From the NCBI GenBank assembly GCA_043826455.1, contig JBDRQD010000031.1, positions 1 through 48,702 on the forward strand: a DNA stretch of 48,702 nt, read 5' to 3'. A program made the translations under genes and the position numbers. Each line of letters opens with the position of its first letter. Position 1 is the stretch's first letter. The notes beneath the pieces are model-generated. The model was not told the origin of the DNA. It made no database searches and saw only the letters and a list, made by a program, of their open reading frames with translations. Below, piece after piece: positions 11,378 through 29,302 of the stretch. This DNA is from Candidatus Bathyarchaeota archaeon. GTDB taxonomy: Archaea > Thermoproteota > Bathyarchaeia > TCS64.

Positions 11378-12625
11378 GTGTTGGAGGATATCGAGGAGCT
11401 GCTGAGGGATTATGTTGAGAGGAACTCGGGTATCTGCTGCGCCCAGTGGGACCCGGCCGTCTCCGAGAGGCTTCTGTTTGACCCCTACGACGCAGATAAA
11501 AGGGCGTGGGCTGCCCACTATTTTCTGCTTAATGCGTCTGTAACTGAGACGGCTCTCATCGGGAGGGCCGAGAACGCCAGGGCCCTCATGGTTGAGCTTC
11601 ACAGGCGCTACGGGGACGCGCTGCTGCGTCAGACTAATGCTCAGCTCCTCAACGAGGCTGTGAGGGGGTGTGGCTTCTACAGGGATTTCAGGTCTCAGCG
11701 GCTGAGGATCGGTGCGGTTCTGGCGGGTGTGAACAGGTGGGTGGAGGAGGAGGCCGGCGGGGACCTTCTTGGGTACTCTGGGCGTTTCTCGTCGCCGTCT
11801 GAGTATGCTCGTGTGCTTCAGGGGATGCCCAGGATGGGTGGCAGGCACTGCGAGAAGGTGTGGATGTATCTCCGGTGGCTTACCAGGCCTTATCCGGATC
11901 TGGGAGTGTATCATTTTGATGTCAGGGATCTGAGGACGCCTTTGACGTCGTACGTTGTCAGTGTGGCCGCCTGCCTGGGGATGTGCGAGGAGCCGGGCTC
12001 CGAGCAGTGGAAGTGTGTTGGGTACCGTGAGGAGGCCCGTGAGAGGGTCACAGGCTACGCTTCCCGGCTGTTCCCTGATGACCCGTTGAGAGTTGACTAC
12101 CCCTTCTACATGCTGGGCCGGTGGATGGAGGGTCAGAGGCCCTGCGTGGAGGACCTGCGGGACTACCTGGTTTTCTTCGATGAGCTGTACAGGCTGACGG
12201 GGACGGTGCCCGTCACTTACGATATTGTGGGTAGGGAGACCAGTGGCTTCGAGAGGAGCCTCCGGGGGCTGCTGGAGAGGCAGTCCATGGTGTTCTACTT
12301 TGAGCCTCAGAGGTTCAGCCTGGGGGGCGGGTTAACCTATAAGCCTGACTTTGTGTTGCCGGGGGTCAGGGTGGGGGGTAGGACGGTTGTCTTGGAGCCG
12401 CATGGGGTGTGGGGTGGCGACCACGAGTTGGAGGTTACCCGGAAGTACCGGTTGTTCAGGGAGATGTTCGGCAGCCTGTTTTACCTGATTCTGATCGTGC
12501 CGCCATTGGAGTATGTCCGGGTGCGTGATGGGTACCCTGAATCATATGATGACATTGTGGAGGGCAACAGGATGGGAGACCTACTGTACATGCTCAAATC
12601 AGGAAGATACAAACAAATATTCTAA
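11378..12625 (+). CDS. DUF2400/TIGR02757-like HhH protein fused to a C-terminal PD-(D/E)XK-like nuclease
   Basis: KVWMYLRWLTRPYPDLG..LRTPLTSYV..FPDDPLRVDYPF; C-terminal FEPQRF..YKPDFVLP..VVLEPHG. Confidence 0.7.
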   Translation: MLEDIEELLRDYVERNSGICCAQWDPAVSERLLFDPYDADKRAWAAHYFLLNASVTETALIGRAENARALMVELHRRYGDALLRQTNAQLLNEAVRGCGFYRDFRSQRLRIGAVLAGVNRWVEEEAGGDLLGYSGRFSSPSEYARVLQGMPRMGGRHCEKVWMYLRWLTRPYPDLGVYHFDVRDLRTPLTSYVVSVAACLGMCEEPGSEQWKCVGYREEARERVTGYASRLFPDDPLRVDYPFYMLGRWMEGQRPCVEDLRDYLVFFDELYRLTGTVPVTYDIVGRETSGFERSLRGLLERQSMVFYFEPQRFSLGGGLTYKPDFVLPGVRVGGRTVVLEPHGVWGGDHELEVTRKYRLFREMFGSLFYLILIVPPLEYVRVRDGYPESYDDIVEGNRMGDLLYMLKSGRYKQIF

Positions 12626-12738: not shown

Positions 12739-13362
12739 ATGATTGATCAAACTAGAGAAATACAACAAGCTATCAATCAAATAACTGAACTTGGCCATTC
12801 GTTACAAAAAATTAAAGGAGGCTCATTCCCCACCGATCTTTTATCAGTTTACGGAGAGCTTTCAGCTTACCTTGAATTAAGGAAACGATTTCCGAATTCT
12901 GAAATCAAATTTAAAAGAAAAGCAAGAGCAGATGTAGAAATAGATGGAATAAAAATAGAAATAAAGACATCTAATTATAAAAAAGAGGATTACGGGGAAG
13001 GTTATGGATTCGCACTGCATATTAAAAAATGTAAACAACATCCTAAAGCTCATTATAAACATCCACGAAGAGGGGCAATTATTGGAGATTTTTGTTATTT
13101 TGATTATCTCGTCTGCGTAGCAGTCAATGAGAATAACATAGAAAACCCCGTTTTCTATGTTTTTTCAAAGGCTGAAATAGAAGGTATTTCATCTGAGATT
13201 GAAAACAAGTCAAGAAGGTTTTGGTACTCTCCTTACAGAATTCTAATCCCTATTAAACCTGATCTGAAAAATAAAGGGGTTTTATACAGTGATTTCGATC
13301 TTGAAATTGCAAATGACAAGAAAAAATACAAGAAAAGGTGGGATAAAATCAAGACCAAATAA
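12739..13362 (+). CDS. Putative PD-(D/E)XK restriction-endonuclease-like protein
   Basis: YGE...ADVEIDGIKIEIKTS, FDYLVCV; very AT-rich insert. Confidence 0.68.
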   Translation: MIDQTREIQQAINQITELGHSLQKIKGGSFPTDLLSVYGELSAYLELRKRFPNSEIKFKRKARADVEIDGIKIEIKTSNYKKEDYGEGYGFALHIKKCKQHPKAHYKHPRRGAIIGDFCYFDYLVCVAVNENNIENPVFYVFSKAEIEGISSEIENKSRRFWYSPYRILIPIKPDLKNKGVLYSDFDLEIANDKKKYKKRWDKIKTK

Positions 13363-13524: not shown

Positions 13525-13902
13525 CTAATAATACGCTGCTCTGAAAGCAGCGATGGCTCTGAAGCCTAGCTTCAGGTATAGGCTGTACCAGCTGAGAACC
13601 TCTCCCCTATCCATGTTCTTCACAGCCTCAACGTAGCCATTCACCCTACTCCACTTCATTACTCCAGCTATCCCTTTCATAGCTAGGTACAACCGTAGGG
13701 CTGACTCCTCCTCAAGGTGATAGTTGACCCGCCCGTCCCTCCAGGACATGAACTCGCTCATTCTAAGTGTCGGGAGCAGGACCTCCCTCAGTAGGGCGGC
13801 TTTGGATCCCTCAGTGGAGGCTTGAACAGTCTTTTTCTTTCCTTCATGTAGCCAGAGCCGTAACGTCGGCTTCTTGGTTACTATCAGTCTGTACTCACTC
13901 AA
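13525..13902 (-). CDS. Small protein ending the DUF499 operon (DUF3780/DUF7680-like by position and pattern)
   Basis: Starts 2 nt after the PglZ stop; ALRLYL...VKNMDRGEVLSWYS...RAIAAFR resembles small partners of DUF499 operons. Confidence 0.6.
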   Translation of the reverse strand: MSEYRLIVTKKPTLRLWLHEGKKKTVQASTEGSKAALLREVLLPTLRMSEFMSWRDGRVNYHLEEESALRLYLAMKGIAGVMKWSRVNGYVEAVKNMDRGEVLSWYSLYLKLGFRAIAAFRAAYY

Positions 13903-13904
13903 CC

Positions 13905-14807
13905 CTATGCACCTACTGTCACGACGGGGACCAGCGATTCTGTGAGGCTAACGCCTCCGTGGGCTATGAAGGTGTTGCTCCCAGGGGAGACATTTACATG
14001 GATCCTCCCAACGGCTACACTGATGCCGTCCACCTCTAACCCGTTGTCGCCGTACTCGCCGCCGTAGCGCTCCTGCCTCCTTGGGGAGGAACCCCAGAAG
14101 TACTTGGCAGGGTTCGAACCGAGGTAGATGTAGCCGTGGTCCCCCGTGACCACCAGGGGGGCGTTCCGTGAGAGCGACTCCACCAAGTCGATGAGTGGAC
14201 CAACTACCCTTGAAACGTCCTGTACTTGGGTGGTCCTGTGGGCACGCGCCCCCGTCAGCGGCGCGTCAGGGTACTGGGTCAGGAGTAGGTGCCCCCGGCT
14301 ACTTCCGACTCTCGGTGGATTCATTATGTCGGCGATTACATCTCCGCGCCATGTGCGGCCTTCGTAGAGCTTCTCGCCCGTGAATGCGTCCTTCAGGCTG
14401 GGTGTGTGGAATATCTTCATGGATACGTTCTGGGTTGTGGTCGGGGCAGGTGTACGCTCAACGGTATAGTGAAGCCTATCACCAAGCTTATTTTGGAGGG
14501 CTAGGAGCTCACGGATGCTGAAGCCGTCGCAGACCAGGACGTTAGCGTCGATCTCAGCAGCCCTCTGGAGCGCCTTTTGGAGAGCCCAGCCGTGCTCCTC
14601 GATTGCCAGATTCCTGTACAGGTCTGAGCCCCATGCGTCGTGCAGCCACTTCTCGAAGCCCTGCAGCCACTCCTCCACCTTATCATAGCTGCTCACAACA
14701 TCATCGAGATCCATGAGGAGGCTGAGCCTGGAGATCAGGTAGTCGACAAGCGCCGGGACCGGGTCATGCTCACGCACAAGCTTAACAAGGAGCGTGTCCG
14801 AGTACAC
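13905..14807 (-). CDS. pglZ: Compact PglZ-like alkaline-phosphatase-fold protein
   Basis: VLVCDGFSIREL, PTTT, VVTGDHGY, HGGVSLTESLVP; GTG14807 preceded by AGGAGG. Confidence 0.8.
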   Translation of the reverse strand: MYSDTLLVKLVREHDPVPALVDYLISRLSLLMDLDDVVSSYDKVEEWLQGFEKWLHDAWGSDLYRNLAIEEHGWALQKALQRAAEIDANVLVCDGFSIRELLALQNKLGDRLHYTVERTPAPTTTQNVSMKIFHTPSLKDAFTGEKLYEGRTWRGDVIADIMNPPRVGSSRGHLLLTQYPDAPLTGARAHRTTQVQDVSRVVGPLIDLVESLSRNAPLVVTGDHGYIYLGSNPAKYFWGSSPRRQERYGGEYGDNGLEVDGISVAVGRIHVNVSPGSNTFIAHGGVSLTESLVPVVTVGA

Positions 14808-14809
14808 CT

Positions 14810-16237
14810 TTACGCCTCCTTCAGCCTGTAGGTTATTCTCTTGGGCTTGTATTCGCCTGGGCTCAGGGTGCAGAGCCACTCGTGTATGGTCTGGCGGTAC
14901 TCGACGGCCGTCCTCACCGCGATCTCCAGGGCCTCCGCGTCCCTGGCGTCGTGAGGGCTCAGTATCTTCATCATGCCGCTGGCGACCCTCTGGATGGCTT
15001 TCTGGTCGCGGATGCTAAGGCTACCTCCTTCAGCGCCCAGCTCAGCCCTCTGGGAGACGGCGTGGACGAAGCTCTCCTTCCGTAGCTCGTGCATGATCTC
15101 GCAGAAGTAGTCAGTTATCAGACCATAACCGTTGGTGAGGTGGACCTCGCTCTGCCCGATCTTGGGCATCTCCCAGCCAGGGATCATGCCGTAGACTCGG
15201 TCGACGAAGGCCGAGTCCTTCATGCAATCGGGCATTACTGCCGTGAAGTCCTCGGCTGGTAGCCTGCCCTGTATCTCAATGTTACCCTGGAACATGAGGC
15301 TGCAGGTGCTCCTGGCCTTCCTTAGCTGGCCTCTCTCGAAGTCGCCGCTATCCATGTAGTCCTTGAACTTGCCCATGACCTCGTCCGGGTTCTTGAAGTC
15401 TATCTTGGCCACCTCGTCGAAGACGACGAGGTCCCTGACTGCTATGTCGCCGAGGGTGCGGTATGTTCCGTGGTAGAATAGTGTCGCGGGGCTCACCTGG
15501 CCTCCGCTGTAGAGCCTTGTATAGTAGCTGACGTTCTTGTAGAGGAAGCTCTTGCCTGTGGCGCGGGGGCCTAGCTCCATCATGTTGACGTTGTTCTCCA
15601 CAAGCGGGACCAGGCGGCTGAGGTAGATGAGCTTGGTTCGGTCGTCGTAGGCGTCGGGGTTCATGCCGAGGGTCTGCATGAGGGCGTCCATCCACTCGCT
15701 CATGGTGAACTCCTCCCGCTTGATCTTGTAGTCGTCCACTCTTACGTTGCTGTACTGGAGGGGGCTGAAGCTGGTTATGATGATGGGGGTCTGGGGGACG
15801 TCGCTGTCCTCTAGCACCATGGGCTGGTAGCTGAGCTTGGCGGTGCCCCACATCCCGGTTTCAAGGAGCTCCTTGTACTGCTCCAGAAGGCTGGGGACTA
15901 TCATGGCGTCTCTGATCTGGAGGCTGGGTATCTCGACCCTCCTCAGGCCGTGCCTGGCGTCTACCCGTACCTTGAACTCGTCGAGCAGCGTGTACTCGCC
16001 ACGGGTGGTGATCTCGTAGAGTACACGGTCTTTCTCCTTGGGCTCGGGGTAGAACTGTTTGACGAAGTTGTTGAGGACGTTCATGGTGGTGGGGTCCTCG
16101 CTCTCCCCGACCAGCTCCCGGGCAGCGTACTCGCTGATGAACTTGGGTAGGCGCTCCAGCTGCTGGGTTCGGCCGAGGCGCTTGTTGACGGTCTCGTCTG
16201 GGAAGACACGTTTCAGCTTCTGGTCTGTCGCGTTCAT
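14810..16237 (-). CDS. brxL: BrxL-like MCM/AAA+ protein lacking the Lon protease domain
   Basis: RLVPLVENNVNMMELGPRATGKS, VVFDEV, SAFVDR, PGWEMPK, GYGLITDYFCE; ends at 475 aa. Confidence 0.9.
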   Translation of the reverse strand: MNATDQKLKRVFPDETVNKRLGRTQQLERLPKFISEYAARELVGESEDPTTMNVLNNFVKQFYPEPKEKDRVLYEITTRGEYTLLDEFKVRVDARHGLRRVEIPSLQIRDAMIVPSLLEQYKELLETGMWGTAKLSYQPMVLEDSDVPQTPIIITSFSPLQYSNVRVDDYKIKREEFTMSEWMDALMQTLGMNPDAYDDRTKLIYLSRLVPLVENNVNMMELGPRATGKSFLYKNVSYYTRLYSGGQVSPATLFYHGTYRTLGDIAVRDLVVFDEVAKIDFKNPDEVMGKFKDYMDSGDFERGQLRKARSTCSLMFQGNIEIQGRLPAEDFTAVMPDCMKDSAFVDRVYGMIPGWEMPKIGQSEVHLTNGYGLITDYFCEIMHELRKESFVHAVSQRAELGAEGGSLSIRDQKAIQRVASGMMKILSPHDARDAEALEIAVRTAVEYRQTIHEWLCTLSPGEYKPKRITYRLKEA

Positions 16238-19200
16238 TGTTTCACCTTCTTGAACTCTTCGAGGGCGCTCTGGAGGCTGCGGGTGGGCTCGGGTAGGGCC
16301 GTGTCCTCCATGGCTATTAGTCGGTAGGTGAGGTTGCCTGGCATCTTAGCCACCTGTTTTAAGGCTTCTTCTGATAGTATCTCTCGGAGGGGCTTGAACT
16401 CCTGCTCACGTTTGGTTAAAGTAACCTCCACCTTGTCCAGGTACTCTCTAAGCTGTGTGATAAGCGACCGTAGCTCGCCCTGTTTATCGCTGGCGGCCTG
16501 GACGCTCACCCTGAGGGACTCTAGTGGTTTACCCTTCTCGGCCTGGGCTGAGAGCTCCACGGTGTAGGGCTGCTGCTGGAGCATCATCAGCGCTCCGAGG
16601 TGCCTGCTACAGTCCTGGTATGACGTGGTGATGGCCAGCTTTGCCTCGCGGGTCTGGGTGCCTAGGAGGGCTTGGAGGTCGGCTGCTGCCTCCGCCACTG
16701 GCTTTGAGCCGTCAATGAGCCTCTGGCCGGGGGTTAAGGGCGTGAACCTGGCCTGGAGCTGCTGGTCGATGTCGAGGGTCACGGTCCGAGTCTGGTTCAG
16801 GTGGCCGTCGCTCCACCTCTCGAAGGCCATGCCCTTGGGGGTCTCAACCCTCACGGTGTGCTGCCTGTCCTTGGCGAGGAGAACAGGCTGCCTGGTCTTG
16901 TAGGGCTGGTTGTCGATGATCACTGTTACATCCATGGACTCCCCTGACTTGATGTTCACCGCATCTATTGTGAGCTGCACATCCTCCGCTGGGGGCCTGG
17001 CTTTCCTGGCTACCTTTATGATGTACTCGTCGTCCCTGTCCCAGGTTATCATCCGTTCCTGCTCCATGGAGCCGTCTGTCCAACCCTCAAAGACTAGCCC
17101 CTCGGGTATGGCTGGGTTAATCGTATGGACTCGGTCGACTAGGTCCTCGATGGTGCTGGGGGTGGCCTTCGCCTCGCGTTTGTCCACCCAGATGGTGAGG
17201 GGCACGGGGGTTCCGGCCTCGTCCTCGGCCCGGATGACTACCTGGGAGACCTCAGGGTCCCGTATTACGAGACCCTCGTCCCTTATTGGCCCAGGGGGCT
17301 TGCCGAAGATGAGCTCCGCGCCGTAGCTGTACGCGGCCTTGCCCTCTGCTACAGCGTCCTGGATGGCCTTCATCGCTACCGCCCTGTCCGTGATGACCTC
17401 TATCTCGGGGCGCCTGTAGAAGCCCTCTATGATGGCCCTGACCTCGGGCTTCGTGGAGCCTTTGGGCCAATAGCGGTCGAGGAGGGTGTCGGGGCTGATC
17501 TGCTCCACGATCTTCTTTGCCTGGGTTCTGAGCCTGTCCTCGACGAGGCTCAGGATGTTCTCGGTGAGCATCCTCTCGGCTCCGAGCTGCATGGCGGTTA
17601 GCCCGGATGAGCTGGGGTACACCAGCCACTGGTAGGCAGAAGGGCAGCTGGGGGCTAGGCCGCTCCTCGCCATGGCGCGCAGATGATCTATCTGTTTGAT
17701 GCCCTCCTCCCCTACCTTGACTCTCAGCTCGTCCTTATCTTTCACCATGGCGTCTAGGGCCATGAGCTCCTTGGCGAGTCTGACGGGGCCGCTGAGGATG
17801 TCCTCTGGTCGGCCCGCGACTAGGAAGTAGACGGTGTTTTTATAGTTGCGTGGGGTGCCACCGTAGCTCTGGTAGAGGTCCCTGACGGCGTCGCAGGCCT
17901 CGTCTGGGCTTGAAGCGGCCCTCGTCTTGCCTGTGCCGTTGGCTGCCACAGTGTAGTCGGCGAGGATTAGTTGGAGGGTTGGAGTGTCGGGTATCTCGTC
18001 GCTGCGGTGAACCCATATGTGGAGGCTCCTTTCGTCCCAGAGGGGTCGCTTACCTGATGCCTGTTTCCTATAATGGGTTAGGGCTGAGGTCTTCCAGAAG
18101 TTGAGCTCCCGCTGTATTTCATTCCACCAGAGGCCAGCTTGCCTGGGGTCGTTCTCGACACGGCGCATGTACTCATCTATGAGCTTGTTGATGTTGGTGC
18201 GGCCGAAGACGTATCGGTCGCCTGAGAGGTCCACGAACCAGAGCTTTGTTCTGATCTCTTTGAGGGCCTCTGGGATGAGGGCCGGGTTGGATGATGGGCT
18301 GAGGATGGCGTATTTGGCCTCCTCCTCGGTGACTCCCTGCTGCTGTGGGCCGGTGGCCGTGAGGCTGTTAAGGACGATGGTGGCGAGGGCTTTCATGGCT
18401 GTGGGGCGGATAGCTTCTGGTATCTGGGTCATTCGTTCCTCTAGCTCCGTGTCGAGCTGGCTGACCAGGATGGGGTTCTTGAGCTTACCTATGGTTCCGC
18501 CGCGGACGTAGCCGTCCTCTAGGCGGGCGTGGCCAACGGTTATGAGGTCTGCGTAAGGGTCCCTGGCCTTGTGGACGCTGTAGATGAGGCTTGCTAGGAA
18601 TCGCAGCTCGTCCCGTATCTGCTGGAAGGCGGGGTCTTCCTTGAGCTTGCCGAGGGTCTGGTCAACGAAGGGATGGAAGGGGTAGTTGTCCTTGATGGCC
18701 TGATCCGAATTGGCCGCCCGTTTGGGCAAGTGCCTACTGTACAGTTCTTGGTAGCCTCTGGCGGTTTCATTGATGGTCTGGGTGAGGGCGTCGAAGTCGT
18801 CTGTGTAGAGGGCGTGACGTCTGACGCTTTTATACTCGCGTGGGGTAGCGATGATGGTGGGTTCGCTGTACCTGTTGAGTACGGCTGAGATGAGTCTTCG
18901 GGCGTCCTCGTAGATGCCGGTGGGGGCGGTGACGACGAGGGCGCATCCCTGGGTCTCGGTGACTGCGGCTGTAAGGTTCTGGAGGAAGGCTTGGAGGACG
19001 CTTATGTGTCTCTGGTTCCCCATGATGTTCTGGATATAGATGGTCGGCTCGTCGATGAGGATGAGAGTGGGCTCAGATTGGAGGACCTCCTTGAGGGTGG
19101 TGACGCTGGGGGCCTGACCCAGTGTATCGATCTCCCTATACTTCTCGTAGGTGTCCAGGGCCTTAAAGAGTACGCCCCATAGCGTGTTGACCTGGGTGCC

Positions 19201-19641
19201 GTCGGGGTACCTTTTACCGAACATGTCTATGCGGCTACCATCGATGACAGCCACCCTGAACTGGGGGGCCTTGTCCGCGATGTGTTCGCGTTTTAGGTAT
19301 GGTTCCGCCTTCTCTGGGTGTTTTGATAGGTAATATAATAGGAGGAGGGTATGGCTCTTGCCTCCACCCATACCCACCTGGAGGTTGTGGATGCTTTGGG
19401 CCTTCTCGCCTTTCATGCGGCGGGTTACGGCTTTGAGGAGGTTTCGCATGGAGTCTGTGAAGTGGGTTCGACGGTAGAAGCCTTCAGGGTCGAGGTAGCG
19501 GGGGTCCACATCGACCTTGGTTCCGAGTTCGAGACGCTCCCAGATGGCGCCCATGCTTACCACGAAGCTGTCTTCGGTTACGTTGCCTGCAGCGACCTCG
19601 GGGTAGGGGTTGAGGGTCTGCCAGACGGGTTTGATTGTCAT
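16234..19641 (-). CDS. DUF499 family AAA+ ATPase with C-terminal beta-rich repeats
   Basis: FYRRTHFT, Walker A GMGGGKSH, Walker B LILIDE, YPFHP, RNYKNTVYFL. Confidence 0.88.
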   Translation of the reverse strand: MTIKPVWQTLNPYPEVAAGNVTEDSFVVSMGAIWERLELGTKVDVDPRYLDPEGFYRRTHFTDSMRNLLKAVTRRMKGEKAQSIHNLQVGMGGGKSHTLLLLYYLSKHPEKAEPYLKREHIADKAPQFRVAVIDGSRIDMFGKRYPDGTQVNTLWGVLFKALDTYEKYREIDTLGQAPSVTTLKEVLQSEPTLILIDEPTIYIQNIMGNQRHISVLQAFLQNLTAAVTETQGCALVVTAPTGIYEDARRLISAVLNRYSEPTIIATPREYKSVRRHALYTDDFDALTQTINETARGYQELYSRHLPKRAANSDQAIKDNYPFHPFVDQTLGKLKEDPAFQQIRDELRFLASLIYSVHKARDPYADLITVGHARLEDGYVRGGTIGKLKNPILVSQLDTELEERMTQIPEAIRPTAMKALATIVLNSLTATGPQQQGVTEEEAKYAILSPSSNPALIPEALKEIRTKLWFVDLSGDRYVFGRTNINKLIDEYMRRVENDPRQAGLWWNEIQRELNFWKTSALTHYRKQASGKRPLWDERSLHIWVHRSDEIPDTPTLQLILADYTVAANGTGKTRAASSPDEACDAVRDLYQSYGGTPRNYKNTVYFLVAGRPEDILSGPVRLAKELMALDAMVKDKDELRVKVGEEGIKQIDHLRAMARSGLAPSCPSAYQWLVYPSSSGLTAMQLGAERMLTENILSLVEDRLRTQAKKIVEQISPDTLLDRYWPKGSTKPEVRAIIEGFYRRPEIEVITDRAVAMKAIQDAVAEGKAAYSYGAELIFGKPPGPIRDEGLVIRDPEVSQVVIRAEDEAGTPVPLTIWVDKREAKATPSTIEDLVDRVHTINPAIPEGLVFEGWTDGSMEQERMITWDRDDEYIIKVARKARPPAEDVQLTIDAVNIKSGESMDVTVIIDNQPYKTRQPVLLAKDRQHTVRVETPKGMAFERWSDGHLNQTRTVTLDIDQQLQARFTPLTPGQRLIDGSKPVAEAAADLQALLGTQTREAKLAITTSYQDCSRHLGALMMLQQQPYTVELSAQAEKGKPLESLRVSVQAASDKQGELRSLITQLREYLDKVEVTLTKREQEFKPLREILSEEALKQVAKMPGNLTYRLIAMEDTALPEPTRSLQSALEEFKKVKQ

Positions 19642-19649
19642 GTTACTTG

Positions 19650-19690
19650 AATAATAATTTAAACTCGGTTAAGAGATATTCCCTGATCCA
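19650..19690. promoter_or_regulatory. Compact divergent promoter between DUF499 and DUF1156 MTase 1
   Basis: Only 50 bp between the divergent starts; contains TTTAAA at 19658-19663. Confidence 0.55.
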
Positions 19691-19691
19691 G

Positions 19692-22553
19692 TTGAAGGAG
19701 CTTCTTATTGAGAAGTGGTTTCCAATCCACGAGGCTAGCATTGAGAGTGGGAGGGAGCGGAGCTTTGCGTACATGCCGCCTCTTCACATCCTTCATTTGT
19801 GGTGGGCTCGGCGCCCTCTTACTGTTTCACGGATCGCCTCCGTTCTTGCTGCCCTCCCCTCCGATTCCTACAACCCAGAGGACTATAGGAAGCTTCTTTA
19901 CGCGATGGGGCTGCGAGGCGACCCTGTCAAGGCGGTTAGTGGAAGAGGCGACGGTAAGAGGAGCTTCAGCTACCCCGTCTTTGAGGGCGTCAACCCCACC
20001 GCGGCTTCATACATGGTTAAGGCGAGAGAGCTTTGGGGCCGTCTGCCTACGGGCGCCGACTACATGGCCGGAGGCGGCAGCATACCCTTCGAAATGAGCC
20101 GCTCTGGGTACGGTTCAGTAGTGGCTGGAGACCTAAATCCTGTAGCCTATATTATTATGAAGGCAGGGCTTGAGTATCCGGCTCGTTACGGTGAGAGACT
20201 CGTCCATGATGTGGAGAGGTACGGAAAGCTGGTGTTGTCACAGCTTCGGGAGAAGGTAGTGCAGTATTACCCTAAATATGCTGGGATTCAGCCTGCTAAT
20301 TATGTCTGGGTGAAGACCTTCCGGTGTCCCGAGTGCGGCTGTGAGGTCCCCGCCGTTAAGCAGCCGGTGATCGATAGGGTGAACAACGTCGCCCTCTACC
20401 CGAGGGTTGAAGGTGAGGAGATAAGGCTTCATGTTGTCAAGGTCACAGATGCGGGGAATGGGCAGCTGCAGGTGGCTGAGGGGCCTTACAGGGGTGAGGA
20501 GTATGACGCTGGTGGCTACGTTCAGCGGGGCGTGTTGGAGTGTCCCCTGCATAGGCACACGGTGAGCGGGGAGGAGTCGAAGCGCCAGTACAGGGAGCAC
20601 CTTGTAGAGTGTGAAGCGGAGGGTTATTATGGGGGCCACCCCGCCGTCCTCGTAGCAGCCGTTTATAAAGGTAGAGAGTTCGCCGAGCCCACTCCTGAGA
20701 TGGTAGAAGGATACAGGCTGGCTGAGAGAGATCTGAGGGACCGATGGGAAGAATATCTTGCAGAGGACCTTATCCCAACTGAATCTATTCCTATAGGCGA
20801 GAAAACAGGTGAACCCCTTAATAATGGAATAAGTAAATGGTACGGACTCTTTAATGCTCGTCAACTCATCGCCCATGCCGAGCTGGTCCGCCTCATCCGC
20901 GAGACAAGATTAAGGGTGGCAGAAGATGAGAGGCGGAAGGGGCGAAGCCCGGAGGAGGCAGAGGAGTACGGCAACGCTGTGGCCACATACCTAACACTTG
21001 CACTCGGAAAAACGGTTGATTATAATTCAATACTTACAGCGTGGGATATTGCTCAAGGTTCAATTGCTCATACATTCGACTCCCATGCCTTCGCCTGGAC
21101 CTGGGACCATGCAGAAGGAGACATGATGAATGATCGAACCGGATATAGTTGGTGTATTAAAAATACACTAAAAGCACTAAAGGGGCTAGTGAAAAGGAAA
21201 GCTGCCCCAGTTACTGTCACTGTTGGTGACGCAGCCTCTCCTGAGATGGTTCCTGAGGGCGGCTTCGATGTAATCATCACTGATCCGCCCTACTATGGTA
21301 ATGTCCAGTATGCTGAGATCAGTGATTATTTCTACGTCTGGTTTAAGAGGGCCCTCCGCGACGCATATCCTGAAGCCTTCAAGGCAGTCGAGGCCCCTAA
21401 GCAGGAGGAGGCCGTCGCCAACCGTGTGCGACACGGTGGGGCAAGGCTCGCGGACACCCACTACGAGGACAAGATGACCCAGATATTCACCGCCATGAAC
21501 CACGCACTCGTCCCTGAGGGCGCCTTCGTCCTATGGTTTGCCCACAAAGCAGGGGCAGCGTGGAGCAGCACCATCAACGCCCTCCTCAACAGCGGCTTCA
21601 CCATAACCGCCTTATGGGGCGTCCGAGCCGAGATGGAGCGCAGCCTCCACATCACAGGCAAGGCCAGCCTCAAGACCAACATCCTACTGGTTTGCCGTAA
21701 ACGCGAGGGAGGAGACGGCTTCCTCCAGGACGCCCTCCATAAACTCGAAGCCACCCTGGAGCCCAGACTACAGGAACTAGAGTCCTACGGCATCACGGGC
21801 CCAGACTTCGTCATGGGCGCCCAAGCTGAAGCCTTACGGATCGCCAGTCAGAGCTGGCCCCTCAGGGACCCCGAGGGCAAGCTCACGGGGCAGGAGATGC
21901 TCGACTACGTCGTTGACCAGGCCACCGGCCTCGCAGCCAGCTACCTCACCCGCAAGATAGCCCCACAGATTGTGGGCGTAGACGCCCCCACCAAGTTCTA
22001 CGTCCTTGCTAGGCACCTCTACGGCGACTCCGTCCCATACGACGACGCCCGTCGCCTGGCCCTCGCCTGTACAGGCGCAACGGGCGTAGGCGACCCTGTG
22101 ATTGATGTCGCTGTCGCCACTGGTCTCGGAGAACTAACATCCGTAACCGTCTCCGGCGCACGTGACAAGGTACTCGAACTCACTCCACCGTGGACTAGGG
22201 CCAGAAAGGGCAAGCTCAGCCCCACAGATAAGAGCCCAGCCATAGACTGGATACATCAGGCAATCACAAACCTACAGGAGGGAGGTAGTATGGACAAGGC
22301 AGCTGAACACTTGGCTCGCGCAGGCGGAGCAGTGTGTGACATCCTTAAGGCCTTGTACGAGGTTCTCCCTGACAATGTGACCGAGGGCAGGAAGGCTGTT
22401 AAGAACATGGAGAAGGAGCATGTGCAGACCCTTCTCCTCACCGTCTGCCAGGAGGGACTTCACTTCCAAGCTCGGAGACGCCTCGCTGCTGAGCAGGCTC
22501 AGAGACGCATGACAGACTATGCCGAGGCGAATCCACGCACGCGGAGAGGCTAA
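19692..22553 (+). CDS. DUF1156 family adenine-specific DNA methyltransferase (copy 1)
   Basis: LHLWWARRPL, motif I DYMAGGGSIP, CPEC, motif IV TDPPYY, WFAHK; start TTG19692 by alignment with copy 2. Confidence 0.92.
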   Translation: MKELLIEKWFPIHEASIESGRERSFAYMPPLHILHLWWARRPLTVSRIASVLAALPSDSYNPEDYRKLLYAMGLRGDPVKAVSGRGDGKRSFSYPVFEGVNPTAASYMVKARELWGRLPTGADYMAGGGSIPFEMSRSGYGSVVAGDLNPVAYIIMKAGLEYPARYGERLVHDVERYGKLVLSQLREKVVQYYPKYAGIQPANYVWVKTFRCPECGCEVPAVKQPVIDRVNNVALYPRVEGEEIRLHVVKVTDAGNGQLQVAEGPYRGEEYDAGGYVQRGVLECPLHRHTVSGEESKRQYREHLVECEAEGYYGGHPAVLVAAVYKGREFAEPTPEMVEGYRLAERDLRDRWEEYLAEDLIPTESIPIGEKTGEPLNNGISKWYGLFNARQLIAHAELVRLIRETRLRVAEDERRKGRSPEEAEEYGNAVATYLTLALGKTVDYNSILTAWDIAQGSIAHTFDSHAFAWTWDHAEGDMMNDRTGYSWCIKNTLKALKGLVKRKAAPVTVTVGDAASPEMVPEGGFDVIITDPPYYGNVQYAEISDYFYVWFKRALRDAYPEAFKAVEAPKQEEAVANRVRHGGARLADTHYEDKMTQIFTAMNHALVPEGAFVLWFAHKAGAAWSSTINALLNSGFTITALWGVRAEMERSLHITGKASLKTNILLVCRKREGGDGFLQDALHKLEATLEPRLQELESYGITGPDFVMGAQAEALRIASQSWPLRDPEGKLTGQEMLDYVVDQATGLAASYLTRKIAPQIVGVDAPTKFYVLARHLYGDSVPYDDARRLALACTGATGVGDPVIDVAVATGLGELTSVTVSGARDKVLELTPPWTRARKGKLSPTDKSPAIDWIHQAITNLQEGGSMDKAAEHLARAGGAVCDILKALYEVLPDNVTEGRKAVKNMEKEHVQTLLLTVCQEGLHFQARRRLAAEQAQRRMTDYAEANPRTRRG

Positions 22554-22683
22554 AGCTGTATAATTCTAGATCCATGAACCCGACCTCGAGGATCGCGCAA
22601 GATATAGGTAGAGGATCTCCTAGACGGGTATGAGGTTCGGAATAATGTTTTAAAGAAATTTAAGACATATTAGTTGATTCGCT

Positions 22684-25600
22684 TTGAAGGAACTCCTCAT
22701 AGAGAAGTGGTTCCCGGTAAACGAGGCCAGTATTGAGAGTAGTAGAGAGAGGGCAGGGGCGAATATGATGCCGCCTTTATATTATCTTCATCTGTGGTGG
22801 AGCAGGAAACCGCTTGCTGCTTCGAGGATAGCAGCTGTGTTGGCAGCACTCCCCGCCGACGCCTACGGTAAAGATGACTTCAAGAAGCTCCTCTCGGCAA
22901 TGGGGCTCAGAGGGGATCCAATCAAAGTTCTTGAGTCTGGGGAGAGAAAGTTCCCTTACAAGATCTTCGAGGGCCAAAACCCTAACTCGACACTGTACAT
23001 GGGGAAGGCTGTGGAGCACTGGGGTAGGAAGCCCGTGGGAGCCGACTTCATGGCTGGCGGTGGCAGCATCCCCTTCGAGATGGCCCGCTCTGGATATGGC
23101 GAGGTTGTCGCGGGAGAGTACAACCCGGTCGCCTACCTGGTCCTCAAAGCAGCGGTGGAGTACCCTGTGAGATACGGGGAGAGGCTCGTTCGGGACGTTG
23201 AGCAGTACGGGAAACAGGTACTCAGGGAGCTCAGGGAGAAGGTCAGGGAGTTCTACCCTCCCCACCCAGCGGGCCAGCCAGTGAACTACGTCTGGGTCCG
23301 CTACTTCCGTTGTCCAGCGTGTGGATGTGAGGTCCCCAGCCTCATAAGCCTTCAGCTGGACCGAGTTAAAGGCTATGCTTTCTGTCCTGAAATTAAGGGT
23401 GACAGGACTGAGCTCAGAGTTGTAAAAGTCGAGGTGCTCGAGAAGATCAAGGTTGGTAATAAAAATGAGGCTCGTGTCAGGGTCACTGAGGGAAGGCTCA
23501 AGGGTACTGTATTCGATACGACCGGATACGTGAACAGAGGAGTTATCGAGTGCCCAATCCATAGGCATACAATAGAGTCAGAAGAGGTGAAACGTCAGTA
23601 CCGGGTACACCTTGAGGAGAGGATGCGCAAGGGTTATCATTGCAGCCACCCGGCAAGGCTAGCGGCTGTCGTCTACAAGGGGAGAGATTACGCTGAGCCC
23701 ACCTCCGAGATGATCAAAGCATACGAGGACGCTGAGGAGCACCTTAAAGATAGCTGGTCAAAACTTCTTACAGAGAATCTAATCCCAATAGAGATGATTA
23801 ACGAAGGTGAAAAAACAACCGAGCCCATCCGATATGGAATCTCATTCTGGGCTGATCTGTTCAATGCCCGTCAGCTCCTTGTTCACGCTGAACTTGTCCG
23901 CCTAATACGCGAGATACCTAAGCAGGTTGCAGCGAACGAGGAGAGGAAGGGAAGCCCGCATATGGAGGCCGAGGAATACGGGAAAGCAATCGCCACTTAC
24001 TTAACACTTGCCTTCGGTAAAGATCTTGATTATAATTCGATTATAACTGGATGGGATAGATCGCAAGGTTCAATCAATAATACATTTAAACAGCATAACT
24101 TTGGTTGGACATGGGAATATGGCGAAGGAGACCAAATACACGAAAAGACCGGATATGATTGGTGTCTTAAAAATTCATTAAAAGCTCTCAAAGGTTTATT
24201 GAAAAGAACGAATGCCAATATCAGAATAAATACCATAATTGGCGATGCCTCAAAGCTCAACTCATTAAACCATTATTTCGACATTATCATCACAGATCCA
24301 CCATACTATGGAAGTATACAGTATGGAGAGCTAAGCGATTATTTCTATGTCTGGTGGAAGAGAGCCATCGGTGACGCCTACCCTGAAGCCTTTATGACGT
24401 TGGACACCCCCAAGACGGATGAAGCTGTTGCTAACCGTGTCCGCCACGGCAGCCCCAAACTCAGCCACGCTGCCTACGAGAAGAAGATGGCTGAGATATT
24501 CACCAACCATTATCATATGCTTCGTAACGAAGGTATCTTCGCACTTTGGTTCGCCCATAAAGCAGGAGCGGCCTGGAGCAGCACCATCCACGCCCTCCTC
24601 AACAGTGGCTTTACAATCACAGCCCTCTGGGGAGTACGCACAGAAATGGAGCACAGCCTCCACATATCTGGTAAAGCAGCCTTACGCACCAACATTCTCA
24701 TGACCTGCCGCAAACGCCAAGAATCAGGCGGCTACCTACAGGATGTCCTCCACCAGCTCGATAACCAGGTCGAGTCCCGCCTTCAGGAGCTCGAGGAGTA
24801 TGGCCTAGTAGGCCCAGACTTCATAATGGCAGCACAAGCCGAAGCCCTCAAAGCCGCCAGCAGCCGCTGGCCCCTCCGCGACCCCGAGGGCAAGCTCACC
24901 CCCATGGAGATGCTCGACCACGCCATGGACTACGCCATCGGCCAGGCAACCAACTACATCACAAGTAAGGTCGCCCCCCAGATCACAGGAGTAGACGCCC
25001 CAACTAAGTTCTATGTCCTAGCCAAGTACCTCTACGGCAAATCCATCCCATACGACGACGCCCGCCGCATCGCCTAGCCTGTACAGGCACATCATCCACA
25101 GGCGACCCTGTCAAAGAGATAGCCGTCGACACAGGCCTCGCAGCCATGAAGAAGCAGCAGCTAGACGGCTCACCGGCAGCCCTATTAGAGTTCCACGCCC
25201 CATGGGACCGGGCGAGGGAGGGTCGCATACCCAAACAGCCCACAACTATTGACTGCATCCACGAGGCCATTGCAGCCCTCGAGGACACTGGCTCCACCAA
25301 CAAGGCGGCTGAGGCCCTAGCCCCCGCTGGCGGAGCGGCCTGCGAGGTCCTGAAGGCCCTTTACCAGGTACTACCAGACCAGCTTAAGAAGGGGCGCACA
25401 ACAACTAAGAACCTTGAGAAAGAGCACGTCCAGACCCTCCTCCTCACCGTCTGCCAGGAAGGGCTCCACATACAAGCGGGTAGACGCCTAGCTGAGGAGC
25501 AGGCTCAGAGACGTATGACCGACTACACCGAGGCCGAGCCCGATCCCAAGAAATATGACCCTATACTGGACGCCTTCCAGAAGAGCGAGCACAGATACGT

Positions 25601-25733
25601 GAAAGTAGAGGTCAAGGGCACAGACCCCCAGACCATCCACAAGATCCTAGCGGAGAGAATAAAGGCCAGAAACCTAACATCCAAGATAGCCGTATCACTC
25701 ATAGGCGGCACAGTGTACCTGGAGAAGACCTGA
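22684..25733 (+). pseudogene. DUF1156 methyltransferase copy 2, split by a 1-bp deletion at ~25074 (pseudogene or sequencing error)
   Basis: LHLWWSRKPL, DFMAGGGSIP, TDPPYY in 22684-25077; homology to copy 1 resumes in the shifted frame (LACTG...GDPV) and runs to 25733. Confidence 0.88.
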
Positions 25734-25734
25734 C

Positions 25735-26184
25735 ATGAGCACCCTAACATCAGCCATATTCGCCGAGTTCGAGGCCCTTAACGAGCTCACCAAACTCTAC
25801 GAGGACACCCACCATGTCAAGGCCGAGAGGATGAGGATCATCGAGTTCATGCGGAAAGCATATCACTCAGAAACCAAGCTCCACCCCACCATCCTGGTGC
25901 TTACAGGCTTACCTAACATCTTGGACTCACCACACACCGAGGACACTGAGCCAATCCAGCTCTTAATATCCTCGGTTAGGAAGCTGAGCAGAGAGACCGT
26001 CCTCCTTATATACGCCGACAAACTGGAGTGGAGCCCATCAAGCCGCACCACCATAAACGTGGACGGCATAACTATACACGTCTCAGAGATCGACATCCCA
26101 GGCACTACAGCCCTCAAATCAAGGATAAAACTAGGAACAGCTAGAGGCAGAAGAAAAGACAACTTCATCAAAGTCAACTGGTAG
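25735..26184 (+). CDS. Hypothetical protein (149 aa)
   Basis: ATG 1 nt after the MTase 2 stop; no recognised motif. Confidence 0.6.
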   Translation: MSTLTSAIFAEFEALNELTKLYEDTHHVKAERMRIIEFMRKAYHSETKLHPTILVLTGLPNILDSPHTEDTEPIQLLISSVRKLSRETVLLIYADKLEWSPSSRTTINVDGITIHVSEIDIPGTTALKSRIKLGTARGRRKDNFIKVNW

Positions 26185-26245: not shown

Positions 26246-27742
26246 ATGACTCAACTCACTTTTTACGGCGGAATAAACGAGATAGGAGGTAATAAGATAC
26301 TTCTTGAAGACCGCGACACACGGATTCTTCTCGACTTCGGCATGAGCTTCAAACAGAGCGGCCTGTACTTCAGCGAGTTCCTACAACCTCGCAAATGCAA
26401 TGGGATAGGAGACTTCCTAGCGACCGGGCTCCTTCCCGAAATACCCGGAATTTATCGCGAGGACTACCTCCGACACATGGGCCGAGATCAAGAGGAGCAA
26501 AGCGTAGACGCTGTAATCATCAGCCACGCCCACATGGATCACATTGCCTACATTAACCACCTTAGACGAGAAATCAAGCTCCTCATGACACCAGGCACTC
26601 ACGCCATCCTCACAGCCATACAACGAACAAGTCAATCCAGCTTCGATGATTATCTCGTCTACAGTCCTAGCTTCGAGCTTCGCCCCAAGAAACGCGGAGA
26701 GGGTTATACCAAATCAGAGGGCGAATCTGTCTCAAGATCACTCGACATAGTCTCACAGATGGAAGATCATCGGATCGGCGACATCACTGTTATACCCCTT
26801 GAGGTCGACCACAGCGTCCCTGGTGCAGCAAGCTGGCTTGTATACACCTCTGAGGGAACCGTCCTCTACACCGGCGACCTCAGGTTTCACGGATACCTCG
26901 GCGAAAAGACAAACGAAATGGTTAGAAAGGCAGTAGAGGAAGGCGTCGACCTGCTCATCACCGAGGGCACACGCGTGGATCAATCAGAAGGGACCACCGA
27001 AGAGGACGTTCATAGTAACGCCTCCCGAATAATTGGAGAAACGCCCGGCCTTGCCGTCGTCAACTTCCCTCCCCGCGACCTCGCCAGGTTCCTTACCTTT
27101 TATAGGATCGCTGAAGCCACGAATAGAAAGCTGATAATAGGATTCAAACAGGCCGCTCTCATCGAAGAATACCACAAGGTGGATCAAACCTTCCCCTCAA
27201 TAGACGATCCTAGCATCCTGCTCTACGCGGAGCGAAAGGAGTGGGGCACCGCTGGCAGAGAAGGTTTACCCTCAAATATTCAGGGCATGTGCATCCCGGG
27301 AGAGGTTTGCAAGCAAGACTACAAGATATGGGAAAGAGAGTACCTCCAAAAAGACAACTGCGTATGCTTCAGCGACCTAACCAACCATTCAGAGTACATG
27401 TTCTACTGCAACTACTTCCAACTCAACGAACTAATAGACATAAAACCCACAAATGGAAGCGTGTATATACGAAGCATAACCGAACCCTTCGACGAGGAGA
27501 TGACTCTTGACGCTCGACGTATAGACAACTGGCTCAATCTATTCAGTCTGACCCAGTATGGTAGAAGATCAGAGGATGGGCTTCACGCATCAGGTCATGC
27601 AACTGGCCCTGAAATAAGAGACATGGTATTGGAGATCGACCCGCGAATCATTGTACCTATCCACACCGAGCACCCTGAGGCGTTTAGCTCAATGAGCCAA
27701 AACGTCGTAGTTGTCGAAAAAAACGGGAGTCTAACCCTCTAG
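26246..27742 (+). CDS. MBL/beta-CASP nuclease, RNase J-like
   Basis: GGINEIGGN, LLDFG, SHAHMDH, VDHS, YTGD, HASGHA, PIHTEH. Confidence 0.88.
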   Translation: MTQLTFYGGINEIGGNKILLEDRDTRILLDFGMSFKQSGLYFSEFLQPRKCNGIGDFLATGLLPEIPGIYREDYLRHMGRDQEEQSVDAVIISHAHMDHIAYINHLRREIKLLMTPGTHAILTAIQRTSQSSFDDYLVYSPSFELRPKKRGEGYTKSEGESVSRSLDIVSQMEDHRIGDITVIPLEVDHSVPGAASWLVYTSEGTVLYTGDLRFHGYLGEKTNEMVRKAVEEGVDLLITEGTRVDQSEGTTEEDVHSNASRIIGETPGLAVVNFPPRDLARFLTFYRIAEATNRKLIIGFKQAALIEEYHKVDQTFPSIDDPSILLYAERKEWGTAGREGLPSNIQGMCIPGEVCKQDYKIWEREYLQKDNCVCFSDLTNHSEYMFYCNYFQLNELIDIKPTNGSVYIRSITEPFDEEMTLDARRIDNWLNLFSLTQYGRRSEDGLHASGHATGPEIRDMVLEIDPRIIVPIHTEHPEAFSSMSQNVVVVEKNGSLTL

Positions 27743-27842
27743 ACTTCAAGTGCCTTTAATTATGCTCAAAGAAGTAAATAGGGCTCCAAGGGCGATTATT
27801 CTATGATTTTATTTTATAAACCAGTAATGCTTAAACAAGACC

Positions 27843-28235
27843 ATGATGGAGAAGAAAGAACTAGATCCGATAGAACTTTTCATAGACAAGCTCGCCTCCA
27901 GAGCATTCTACGGTTACGCAGGAGAGAAACCTCTTGTCATCCTAGCAGCTATAGAAACCTCCAGTGGCATAATGCGAGAGAACCAGCTTGCCCTAAGCGA
28001 AGTTCTAAGATCACCCATCCTTGGAAAACAGATCAAGAGAGCTTTCATAAACTTAGCACGGAGAACTAGTAAACTTAAAGATCCTGAATCTTCTTGGGGC
28101 AACGTTGTTACCACGAATGAAGAACTTCTCATCATCCTTAAAGAGAAAAAAAGTGTAGACGAGGCATTCAGAACAATGACTAAGGAAAGAACCGATAAAA
28201 TTATTAGAAAATATTACACCAAGCTGGGCTTATAG
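27843..28235 (+). CDS. Hypothetical protein (130 aa)
   Basis: ORF with TTTATAAA ~25 nt upstream. Confidence 0.55.
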   Translation: MMEKKELDPIELFIDKLASRAFYGYAGEKPLVILAAIETSSGIMRENQLALSEVLRSPILGKQIKRAFINLARRTSKLKDPESSWGNVVTTNEELLIILKEKKSVDEAFRTMTKERTDKIIRKYYTKLGL

Positions 28236-28289
28236 TTAATACCAAAGATAAATCGAAGCTAATAATATTTCACTTGAAAAAAAATTGTA

Positions 28290-29228
28290 CTATTTTCCAA
28301 TCATAAACAAGGCCATCTCGACATCACCAACACTGAATGGGTAACCCCTCTCATTCAAGTAATCCCTCACAACCTCAAGAACCCAAATAAGCCTCTCATA
28401 GTTCTCAGCCCACACCTCATCCGAGCAAACATCCCCACAACGACTCCTACCCACTGGACACTTCAACAACCTCTCCCCATCAAATCTGAGAGATCTGAAC
28501 GCACTACCCACACGGCTATCATAGATCGCGAACCTGTTCTGATCAAACAACCCAAGAACCTTGGAAGCAGACGATATGCCTACACCGTAAACCCCAAGCA
28601 GAACCCTGGCCGCGCCCCTAACCTGACCCTCGTCAAGCAAGTTGAACGCCTCACGGGTCACCTTCAGAGCCCCACCCTCCTCTAAACTAACCCTGTTTAA
28701 CCCACCCCAACCCATCACCCTGTCCAGCGTACGAAGATCAACACCGCCCAAGTTCTCAATCCTGGACTTCACCAATGCCGCCTGGATCTCGTTCCTCTCA
28801 TTAATACACTCGATGGTGGGTTTATCTCTCCAAGAATAACACCTGCGCCCCTCAACCAGCTCATCGAAGTGCTCCTCAGCCCAAAGCCTGATGACTTCAC
28901 CATACTTGCCTTTAAAATCCTCTGCAGGGTCCACCAGTCTAGGTTTCTCAGGTTTCACTGGAGTGAGCGTAAAATTCAGTCGAAATTTACCTGCCCTCAA
29001 GTAGTCAAAGTATGGGTGATTCTTCCGGGTCGACGAGTAATAGATGCTTGAAGGGTGCTCCGGAGCCATAGCTATAACATAAGTCCTTATCGTGGTCGCG
29101 GGAATCTCAGGCCGCTCCTGATGAACCTTCTCAATCACATCCTTCGGCTGGAAAACTTCCTTTTCCAGGCTTTTAACCGCCTCAAGAACGATCTCCCAGA
29201 TGGGCGCACCATACTTAGACACACTCAT
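28290..29228 (-). CDS. N-terminal wHTH-like domain fused to an HhH DNA-glycosylase-like domain
   Basis: VMGWGG, LGVYGVGISSASKVL (HhH), FAIYDSRV, DVEMALF; SD GGAGGT upstream. Confidence 0.68.
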   Translation of the reverse strand: MSVSKYGAPIWEIVLEAVKSLEKEVFQPKDVIEKVHQERPEIPATTIRTYVIAMAPEHPSSIYYSSTRKNHPYFDYLRAGKFRLNFTLTPVKPEKPRLVDPAEDFKGKYGEVIRLWAEEHFDELVEGRRCYSWRDKPTIECINERNEIQAALVKSRIENLGGVDLRTLDRVMGWGGLNRVSLEEGGALKVTREAFNLLDEGQVRGAARVLLGVYGVGISSASKVLGLFDQNRFAIYDSRVGSAFRSLRFDGERLLKCPVGRSRCGDVCSDEVWAENYERLIWVLEVVRDYLNERGYPFSVGDVEMALFMIGK

Positions 29229-29302
29229 CTACCTCCATACTGAACCAGAGCCTCTCAGAGATAGCTGGGTCCTGACGAGTACAGCAGACCATAGAGTCCC
29301 CC

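What the first reader, a model, noticed from the sequence alone, without database searches (positions are those of the whole stretch)
13525..25733. Hybrid BREX-like system: DUF499 ATPase-BrxL-PglZ-small protein operon divergent from two DUF1156 methyltransferases, with no helicase
Seen: four tightly coupled minus-strand genes (ATGA overlap, 2-nt gaps) share a 50-bp divergent promoter with a DUF1156 MTase. Known: BREX uses a BrxC/PglY ATPase and PglZ with BrxL plus PglX (type 1) or a PAPS reductase (type 4), while DUF499/DUF1156 loci usually carry an SNF2 helicase-nuclease. Inference: DUF499 stands in for BrxC and DUF1156 for PglX, BrxL lacks its Lon domain and PglZ is only ~300 aa. That would make a minimal archaeal BREX-related architecture that fits no canonical BREX type. 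DUF499-centred BREX-related loci may already be catalogued, so novelty needs checking.
Basis: partly seen in the sequence, partly recalled or inferred. Interest (0 to 1): 0.85.

Follow-up and report, generated by a model that had tools for sequence, protein, structure and literature searches.

The report
Helicase-free BREX-related cassette using BrxL
This archaeon carries a conserved six-gene cluster that likely marks its own DNA by methylation and attacks unmarked invading DNA; it is a variant of the recently described BREX-related defence systems, with a BrxL ring ATPase where those systems have a helicase.

Summary
DUF499-BrxL-PglZ-DUF7680 are tightly coupled and face a DUF1156 methyltransferase across 50 bp.

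The cassette recurs in archaea. Of 31 related loci where the gene upstream of PglZ is visible, 24 have BrxL and 7 lack it. No SNF2 gene was found in this genome.

Most parts are published. Type-3 BR (PMC12839542) has DUF499, DUF1156, standalone PglZ and iSTAND, but also an SNF2 helicase; that paper restricts BrxL to BREX types 1 and 4 (supplement unreadable). The cassette forms its own clade. Its methyltransferase does not group with Type-3 BR (AU p=4e-5); DUF499 is unresolved (p=0.48). DUF7680 fills the small-subunit slot of MANTIS-type loci. So it is likely a chimera: a MANTIS-like methylation module with a PglZ/BrxB-like/BrxL effector arm.

The two methyltransferases are not a duplication but distinct alleles. 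A congener has Type I restriction genes at the same site. This scan noted the cassette at least three times before on other DNA. Verdict: new variant of a known kind; function untested.

The parts
13525..13902 (-). DUF7680 small protein, 125 aa; predicted methylation cofactor (MtsB slot)
   Evidence: Pfam PF24728 E 1.2e-7. Follows PglZ in 40 of 45 related loci. The family sits right after DUF499 in MANTIS-order loci L206, L207 and in 20 of 42 other archaeal DUF499 loci.
13905..14807 (-). Standalone PglZ phosphodiesterase/nuclease core, 300 aa; His-to-Thr at position 185
   Evidence: Position 185 is His in 42 of 50 homologs, Thr in 6, Ser in 2.
14810..16237 (-). BrxL AAA+ ATPase, 475 aa, no Lon-like or HKD C-terminal domain
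   Evidence: TIGR02688 above cut-off; BrxL_N + BrxL_ATPase; Walker A GPRATGKS and Walker B VFDE intact.
16234..19641 (-). DUF499 ORC/Cdc6-type AAA+ ATPase, 1135 aa (BrxC/MtsA/HmaC counterpart)
   Evidence: PF04465; PADLOC HmaC E 1e-57; Walker A GMGGGKSH and Walker B LIDE.
19642..19691 (.). 50-bp divergent intergenic region with TTTAAA (19658-19663) and TTAA (19669-19672); predicted two-way promoter
   Evidence: Sequence; nearly the same as the L094 intergenic region by eye. Promoter function inferred.
19692..22553 (+). DUF1156 N6-adenine methyltransferase 1, intact, 953 aa
   Evidence: PF06634, HmaB, PglXI hits; motif I YMAGGGS, motif IV DPPY; nearest relative L088, 82%.
22684..25733 (+). DUF1156 methyltransferase 2, split by a 1-nt deletion near 25072 into 22684-25077 (797 aa, both catalytic motifs) and a downstream piece ending 25733
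   Evidence: The same sequence is in the source run's contig and in a 381-nt contig from another study. Nearest relative L087, 74%.
25735..26184 (+). Sixth gene, 149 aa; predicted BrxB-like inactive STAND ATPase (iSTAND)
   Evidence: Follows the MTase in 11 other contigs that reach this far. AlphaFold model pLDDT 86, pTM 0.82, with the iSTAND strand order. Fold matches are mostly AAA+/P-loop cores, but Z is at most 4.9.

Best explanation
The locus is a six-gene cassette, conserved in archaea, that likely works as a restriction-modification-like anti-virus and anti-plasmid system built from a MANTIS-like methylation module and a BREX-like effector arm. Shown: gene content, order, conservation, intact ATPase and MTase motifs, no SNF2 match in the genome. 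Inferred by analogy to MANTIS: the DUF499 ATPase loads the DUF1156 MTase on a short asymmetric site and, with DUF7680 as cofactor, methylates one strand of host DNA. Inferred by analogy to BREX: on unmethylated invader sites the same complex recruits PglZ, probably through the BrxB-like sixth protein, and PglZ nicks the DNA; BrxL assembles as an ATP-driven ring on double-stranded DNA and strengthens the block, taking the motor role of the missing SNF2 helicase. The MTase would set specificity for both marking and attack, so alleles could be swapped safely; the window likely records such a swap, with MTase-1 added and MTase-2 decaying.
For: Conservation: full six-gene order in the window, L002, L087, L088, L093, L094, L106; a five-gene form without BrxL in L108, L110, L111, L120. 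Census of 45 close loci: BrxL upstream of PglZ 24, DUF499 directly upstream 7, contig cut 14; DUF7680 downstream 40, other 2, cut 3. One clade in both DUF499 (15 rows, 100) and MTase (11 rows, 100) trees. MTase grouping with Type-3-BR-like loci is rejected, p-AU 4e-5. DUF7680 occupies the slot after DUF499 in PLD-SNF2 loci and was found in 0 of 24 distant-PglZ loci. The sixth gene's model fits the published iSTAND topology. Defence context: a congener has Type I HsdM-S-R between the same flanks; cassette parts in only 2 of 31 congeners by DNA search. Published mechanisms: MtsA+MtsB needed for MtsC methylation, PglZ nicks DNA, BrxB bridges BrxC and PglZ, BrxL rings on dsDNA.
Against: No activity was measured. 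The DUF499 tree does not reject grouping with Type-3-BR-like loci (p-AU 0.48). The iSTAND call is weak by score: best Z 4.9, Foldseek E at least 0.06, profile match to Type-3 iSTANDs only 1.8% probability. In type I BREX, BrxB binds PglZ residues 1-98, an N-terminal domain this short PglZ appears to lack, so the bridge is unexplained. Homology of DUF7680 to DUF3780/MtsB was not tested. The window's PglZ has Thr where 42 of 50 homologs have His. BrxL is absent from 7 of 31 informative loci, so it is not essential to the cassette; three BrxL-less loci (L108, L110, L120, near-copies) have an SMC-like ATPase and an SF2 helicase about 2.5 kb away on the other strand. The 45 loci include near-duplicates, and many are short contigs.
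Confidence: 0.6

Rival explanations
1. It is an ordinary Type-3 BR system already catalogued among the 134 archaeal taxa of PMC12839542, with the helicase lost and BrxL as an accessory passenger.
For: It shares DUF499, DUF1156, standalone PglZ and probably iSTAND with Type-3 BR. Its PglZ search recovers canonical Type-3 loci. DUF499 does not reject common ancestry. The supplement could not be read.
Against: The paper says Type-3 BR keeps the helicase and that BrxL is specific to BREX types 1 and 4. MTase monophyly with Type-3-like loci is rejected. Gene order differs (divergent vs one strand). DUF7680 was not found in 24 distant-PglZ loci.
Confidence: 0.2
2. PglZ here works mainly as a nucleotide or cyclic-oligonucleotide phosphodiesterase that starves or silences the invader, not as a DNA nickase; the methylation module only senses.
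For: The PglZ is a bare core like PorX. PglZ cleaves cyclic oligonucleotides, and nucleotide depletion is proposed in PMC12839542.
Against: Type I PglZ nicks and linearises dsDNA, and loss of this lowers defence by about 3 logs. Tight linkage to a DNA ring ATPase fits action on DNA.
Confidence: 0.12
3. In this genome the cassette is modification-only or decaying, and any restriction comes from neighbouring nucleases.
For: MTase-2 is frameshifted. PglZ has H185T. A low-GC (0.33) ORF with a PD-(D/E)XK-like motif seen by eye lies next door at 12739-13362.
Against: All other genes are full length with intact motifs. Seven other homologs also lack His at 185. The neighbour is not found beside the cassette in other loci.
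Confidence: 0.08

Closest known systems
Type-3 DUF499-centred BREX-related (BR) system (Rakesh & Krishnan, NAR 2026, PMC12839542)
   Same: DUF499 ATPase, DUF1156 N6-MTase, standalone PglZ core, and probably a separate iSTAND gene; no dedicated nuclease other than PglZ.
   Different: No SNF2 helicase; BrxL present; DUF7680 present; divergent layout; the MTase belongs to another lineage.
MANTIS / Gao_RL / Type-2 BR (bioRxiv 10.64898/2026.09.23.753747)
   Same: DUF499 + small subunit + DUF1156 MTase. DUF7680 fills the same slot in MANTIS-order loci (L206, L207). Archaeal PLD-SNF2 loci L172, L173, L175, L177 share the divergent MTase/DUF499 layout.
   Different: The PLD-SNF2 effector MtsD is absent, with PglZ, an iSTAND-like protein and BrxL instead; the small subunit is DUF7680, not DUF3780.
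Type-1 BR / Hma
   Same: Best PADLOC hits are HmaC and HmaB.
   Different: No HmaA helicase-nuclease; four extra genes.
BREX types 1 and 4
   Same: BrxL, PglZ, a BrxC-like ATPase and a probable BrxB counterpart; the Lon-less BrxL resembles type 4.
   Different: DUF499 instead of BrxC (DUF6079); PglXI-like MTase instead of PglX or PAPS reductase; no BrxA found; PglZ lacks its N- and C-terminal domains.

Membership tests
Type-3 BR | DUF499 ATPase | tested here: met
Type-3 BR | DUF1156 N6-MTase | tested here: met
Type-3 BR | Standalone PglZ with metal-site residues | tested here: met
   300 aa, invariant D/T/D/D/H/H; one His is Thr in the window; fold not modelled successfully
Type-3 BR | Separate iSTAND gene | tested here: inconclusive
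   Topology fits; Z at most 4.9; hhalign 1.8%
Type-3 BR | SNF2 helicase without nuclease fusion | tested here: not met
   No PF00176 match in the 97.7%-complete genome; no hit of my SNF2 profile in the window, L002 or L085-L125
Type-3 BR | DUF499 in the Type-3 clade | tested here: inconclusive
   Separate well-supported clade, but p-AU 0.48; the paper's own reference set was not available
Type-2 BR / MANTIS | HKD/PLD-SNF2 effector | tested here: not met
Type-2 BR / MANTIS | DUF3780 small subunit | tested here: inconclusive
   The small protein is DUF7680. PF12635 search found nothing in 301 genomes, but no control rang; remote homology not tested
Type-2 BR / MANTIS | ATPase-dependent hemimethylation; inverted-site restriction | not testable with these tools
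   needs methylome and restriction assays
Type-1 BR / Hma | Helicase-REase fusion | tested here: not met
BREX type 1 | BrxC, PglX, BrxA and multidomain PglZ | tested here: not met
   No PADLOC BrxC, PglX-only or BrxA hit among 24 window proteins scanned; PglZ is 300 aa
BREX type 1/4 | BrxL | tested here: met
   TIGR02688 above cut-off
BREX type 4 | PAPS reductase and DUF4007 | tested here: not met
   No such Pfam hit among the 52 window ORFs scanned

The most novel reading that the evidence does not exclude
A fourth, archaeal type of BREX-related system: a helicase-free chimera in which a MANTIS-like methylation module (DUF499, DUF7680, DUF1156) drives a BREX effector arm (minimal PglZ, BrxB-like adaptor, single-ring BrxL). 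It exists in natural forms with and without BrxL, and changes target sequence by swapping whole methyltransferase genes.
Probability: 0.45. Interest if true: 0.65.

Novelty: new variant of a known kind. Interest (0 to 1): 0.5.

Why it matters
How BREX blocks phages, and what BrxL does, are open questions. This cassette puts the smallest PglZ and a Lon-less BrxL on a methylation module whose type has just been reconstituted (MANTIS). Sister cassettes with and without BrxL, and near-identical cassettes with different MTases, are ready-made comparisons. It also goes against the published statement that BrxL is confined to BREX types 1 and 4, and supports the idea that BrxL and SF2 helicases are interchangeable motors.

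Tried and rejected
Single-sequence AlphaFold of PglZ failed (pLDDT 34), so the fold was not shown structurally. Complex prediction of DUF499(1-500) with the sixth protein, ATP and Mg gave no verdict (score 0.01). ESM Atlas gave no usable hit for DUF7680 and nothing at 0.9 or above for the sixth gene. PADLOC scans of the sixth-gene and DUF7680 alignments and the PDB profile search of DUF7680 gave only chance hits or none. BrxB itself was not among the listed fold matches. A DUF3780 search was uninformative because no control rang. No RNA holder was listed; RNA contigs laid only scraps from other strains. I first thought the DUF499 came from the Type-2 lineage; the tree does not resolve this. 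'Recent tandem duplication of the MTase' was rejected (p-AU 4e-10). 'Assembly error at the frameshift' is unlikely. Whether BrxL was gained or lost in the clade is unresolved. The first tree run timed out and was redone with FastTree. The supplement of PMC12839542 could not be read. Look-ups of earlier scan notes by sequence and by place returned nothing.
Full report
1. Observation. The window is one contig (G000:C31) of an archaeal genome, 97.7% complete and 7.2% contaminated; named close relatives are Bathyarchaeia. The four minus-strand genes, the ATGA overlap, the two 2-nt gaps and the 50-nt divergent gap are as described. DUF499, DUF1156 (twice) and DUF7680 are identified by Pfam; BrxL passes the TIGR02688 cut-off and has no Lon domain. 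The 300-aa protein is a PglZ core on sequence evidence: 61 homologs of about 300 aa, many with a precomputed PF08665 hit, 8 of 50 aligned members matching PF08665 on rescan, weak profile hits to PorX and two PglZ chains, and invariant D94, T125, D181, D223, H224, H283. T125 and H283 likely correspond to E. fergusonii T538 and H741 (inferred from motifs; residues). The window has Thr at 185 where 42 of 50 have His; that this His is a metal ligand is recalled from the alkaline-phosphatase family, not tested. No SNF2 match exists in the genome (the control rang in 14 of 14).

2. What was missed. MTase-2 has a 1-nt deletion near 25072 relative to MTase-1. The source run's 14.8-kb contig matches 12790-27574 without differences, and a 381-nt contig (depth 2.6) from a different study spans the break unchanged, so it is likely real. 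A sixth gene, 25735-26184, follows the MTase in 11 other contigs that reach that far. Its model is confident (pLDDT 86): a core sheet, a helix insert after strand 2, a beta insert after strand 4, no Walker motifs and no helical bundle, as PMC12839542 describes for iSTAND. The top 50 fold matches are mostly AAA+/P-loop cores, but Z is 4.0-4.9, Foldseek is not significant and the profile match to Type-3 iSTANDs is 1.8%. I call it a probable, unproven BrxB counterpart.

3. Conservation. A BrxL search of species genomes kept 80 of 98 loci; 4 had the cassette. A PglZ-profile scan of metagenomes gave 66 loci. I counted the 4 genome loci plus L085-L125 (45 in all), leaving out 24 distant-PglZ loci and the fragment L138. 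Upstream of PglZ: BrxL 24, DUF499 directly 7, cut off 14. Downstream: DUF7680 40, something else 2, cut off 3. These include near-duplicates and short contigs. The full six-gene order is seen in the window and 6 contigs; the five-gene form in 4. My SNF2 profile hit none of the window, L002 or L085-L125 (L004 and L007 were not scanned). However, Pfam finds an SF2 helicase and an SMC-like ATPase on the opposite strand near 3 BrxL-less near-copies. The cassette is rare: 3 of 401 class genomes by PglZ, and parts in 2 of 31 congeners by DNA. Named homologs include Thermococcus and Thermoproteota/Korarchaeota records. In congener G126 the same flanks, after PCNA and before the DUF7669 gene, enclose Type I HsdM-S-R, so the site is a defence slot.

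4. Descent. Among the distant-PglZ loci are canonical Type-3 BR operons, DUF499-PglZ-MTase-small-SNF2 (L134, L143, L144, L145, L147, L149); this label is mine, from gene content. In FastTree trees (65 DUF499 rows of at least 830 aa, 59 MTase rows of at least 780 aa; L084, L088, L130, L133, L146 left out as apparent duplicates) the cassette is one clade with support 100 in both, apart from these loci. On subsets chosen after seeing those trees, holding the cassette with Type-3-like loci is rejected for the MTase (27 rows, p-AU 4e-5) but not for DUF499 (24 rows, p-AU 0.48). DUF7680 sits directly after DUF499 in plasmid operons of MANTIS order (L206; L207 with PLD-SNF2) and, by iterated profile, in 20 of 42 other archaeal DUF499 loci and 0 of 24 distant-PglZ loci. 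Four archaeal PLD-SNF2 loci share the divergent layout. The cassette's BrxLs form one clade (99) whose sister group is BrxLs beside Eco57I-type MTases; L001's BrxL nests inside it but sits in an unrelated operon (46 rows, only L001-L030 of the 80 genome loci used). So BrxL moves between systems. Direction of gain or loss is unresolved.

5. Two MTases. They are 62% identical and not sisters (p-AU 4e-10): MTase-1 groups with L088 and L094, MTase-2 with L087. L087 and L088 are 93% identical over 8 kb of the core but 78% over most of the MTase and the sixth gene. Each window MTase has its own AT-rich upstream region, MTase-1's like L094's and MTase-2's like L087/L088's (by eye). MTase-2 abuts the sixth gene. 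I infer that MTase-1 was added and MTase-2 is decaying: a change of specificity in progress.

6. Mechanism (inferred). In MANTIS the DUF499 ATPase and a small cofactor are both needed for the DUF1156 MTase to hemimethylate a 6-bp site, and the MTase directs restriction too. In type I BREX, BrxB bridges BrxC and PglZ, PglZ nicks dsDNA, and BrxL forms ATP-dependent rings on dsDNA, with its C-terminal domain joining two hexamers. Putting these together gives the best explanation; a Lon-less BrxL would act as a single ring. The weak point is that BrxB binds a PglZ N-terminal domain that this PglZ appears to lack. Confidence 0.6.

7. Literature. PMC12839542: abstract, sections 18, 19, 21, 29, 30, 33, 40 and passages read; supplement unreadable, and it may list such loci. 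MANTIS preprint: abstract and sections 3, 12, 17. PMC13326643, PMC12205998, PMC10164562: passages only. PMC13477220: listing only. Four searches: at least 3 of DUF499/DUF1156/BREX/PglZ/BrxL (42 papers, 30 listed); at least 4 of BREX-related/BrxL/archaea/DUF499/helicase since 2025 (6 papers, 4 listed); DUF7680 (0); Bathyarchaeia+BREX+defense (1). In what I read, none describes a DUF499 system with BrxL. Earlier notes of this scan report the same cassette in three other genomes; they are not independent support.

8. Verdict. Real and conserved; a new variant of the BREX-related systems, not a member of Type-3 or Type-2 BR as defined, since the helicase test fails. Interest 0.5.

Noticed in passing
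window 25515-25733; G000:C6, C25, C30 (L200-L202): The last ~60 aa of MTase-2 (also on the L087 and L088 MTases, absent from MTase-1) match three standalone ~82-aa basic proteins elsewhere in the genome; no Pfam or significant PDB hit. Possibly a small DNA-binding domain.
   Followed up: partly
window 9345-9575: A ~225-bp element with about 50 diverged matches (70-80% identity) across the genome and imperfect 14-nt terminal inverted repeats; MITE-like.
   Followed up: partly
window 12739-13362 (+): 207-aa ORF, GC 0.33 against 0.58 for the genome, with a PD-(D/E)XK-like motif seen by eye; no Pfam, PADLOC or PDB hit. Possibly a recently acquired nuclease.
   Followed up: partly
window 11378-12625 (+): 415-aa protein with a DUF2400 hit and a C-terminal nuclease-like motif; found in several congeners at this site.
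   Followed up: partly
L001:7063-11401; L006, L008-L011: BrxL in other operons: nuclease-like + unknown + ATPase + BrxL (L001), and Eco57I-type MTase next to BrxL, with a C-terminal extension of ~160 aa in L008, L009, L011.
   Followed up: partly
L178, L187: Divergent DUF1156/DUF499 pairs whose MTases are sister to this cassette's, next to a PD-(D/E)XK protein (and, in L178, a superfamily-1-like helicase) rather than SNF2.
   Followed up: no
L126-L131, L135, L140-L142: DUF499-PglZ-MTase loci with no SNF2 seen; L140 and L142 carry EAD7, TIR or STAND genes inside the operon.
   Followed up: no
window 26246-30034: A beta-CASP metallo-hydrolase, a DUF7669 protein and a bacterial-type RNase III gene follow the cassette.
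   Followed up: no
L198: Another DUF499 locus with several DUF1156 MTase genes in a row, suggesting MTase stacking is recurrent.
   Followed up: no
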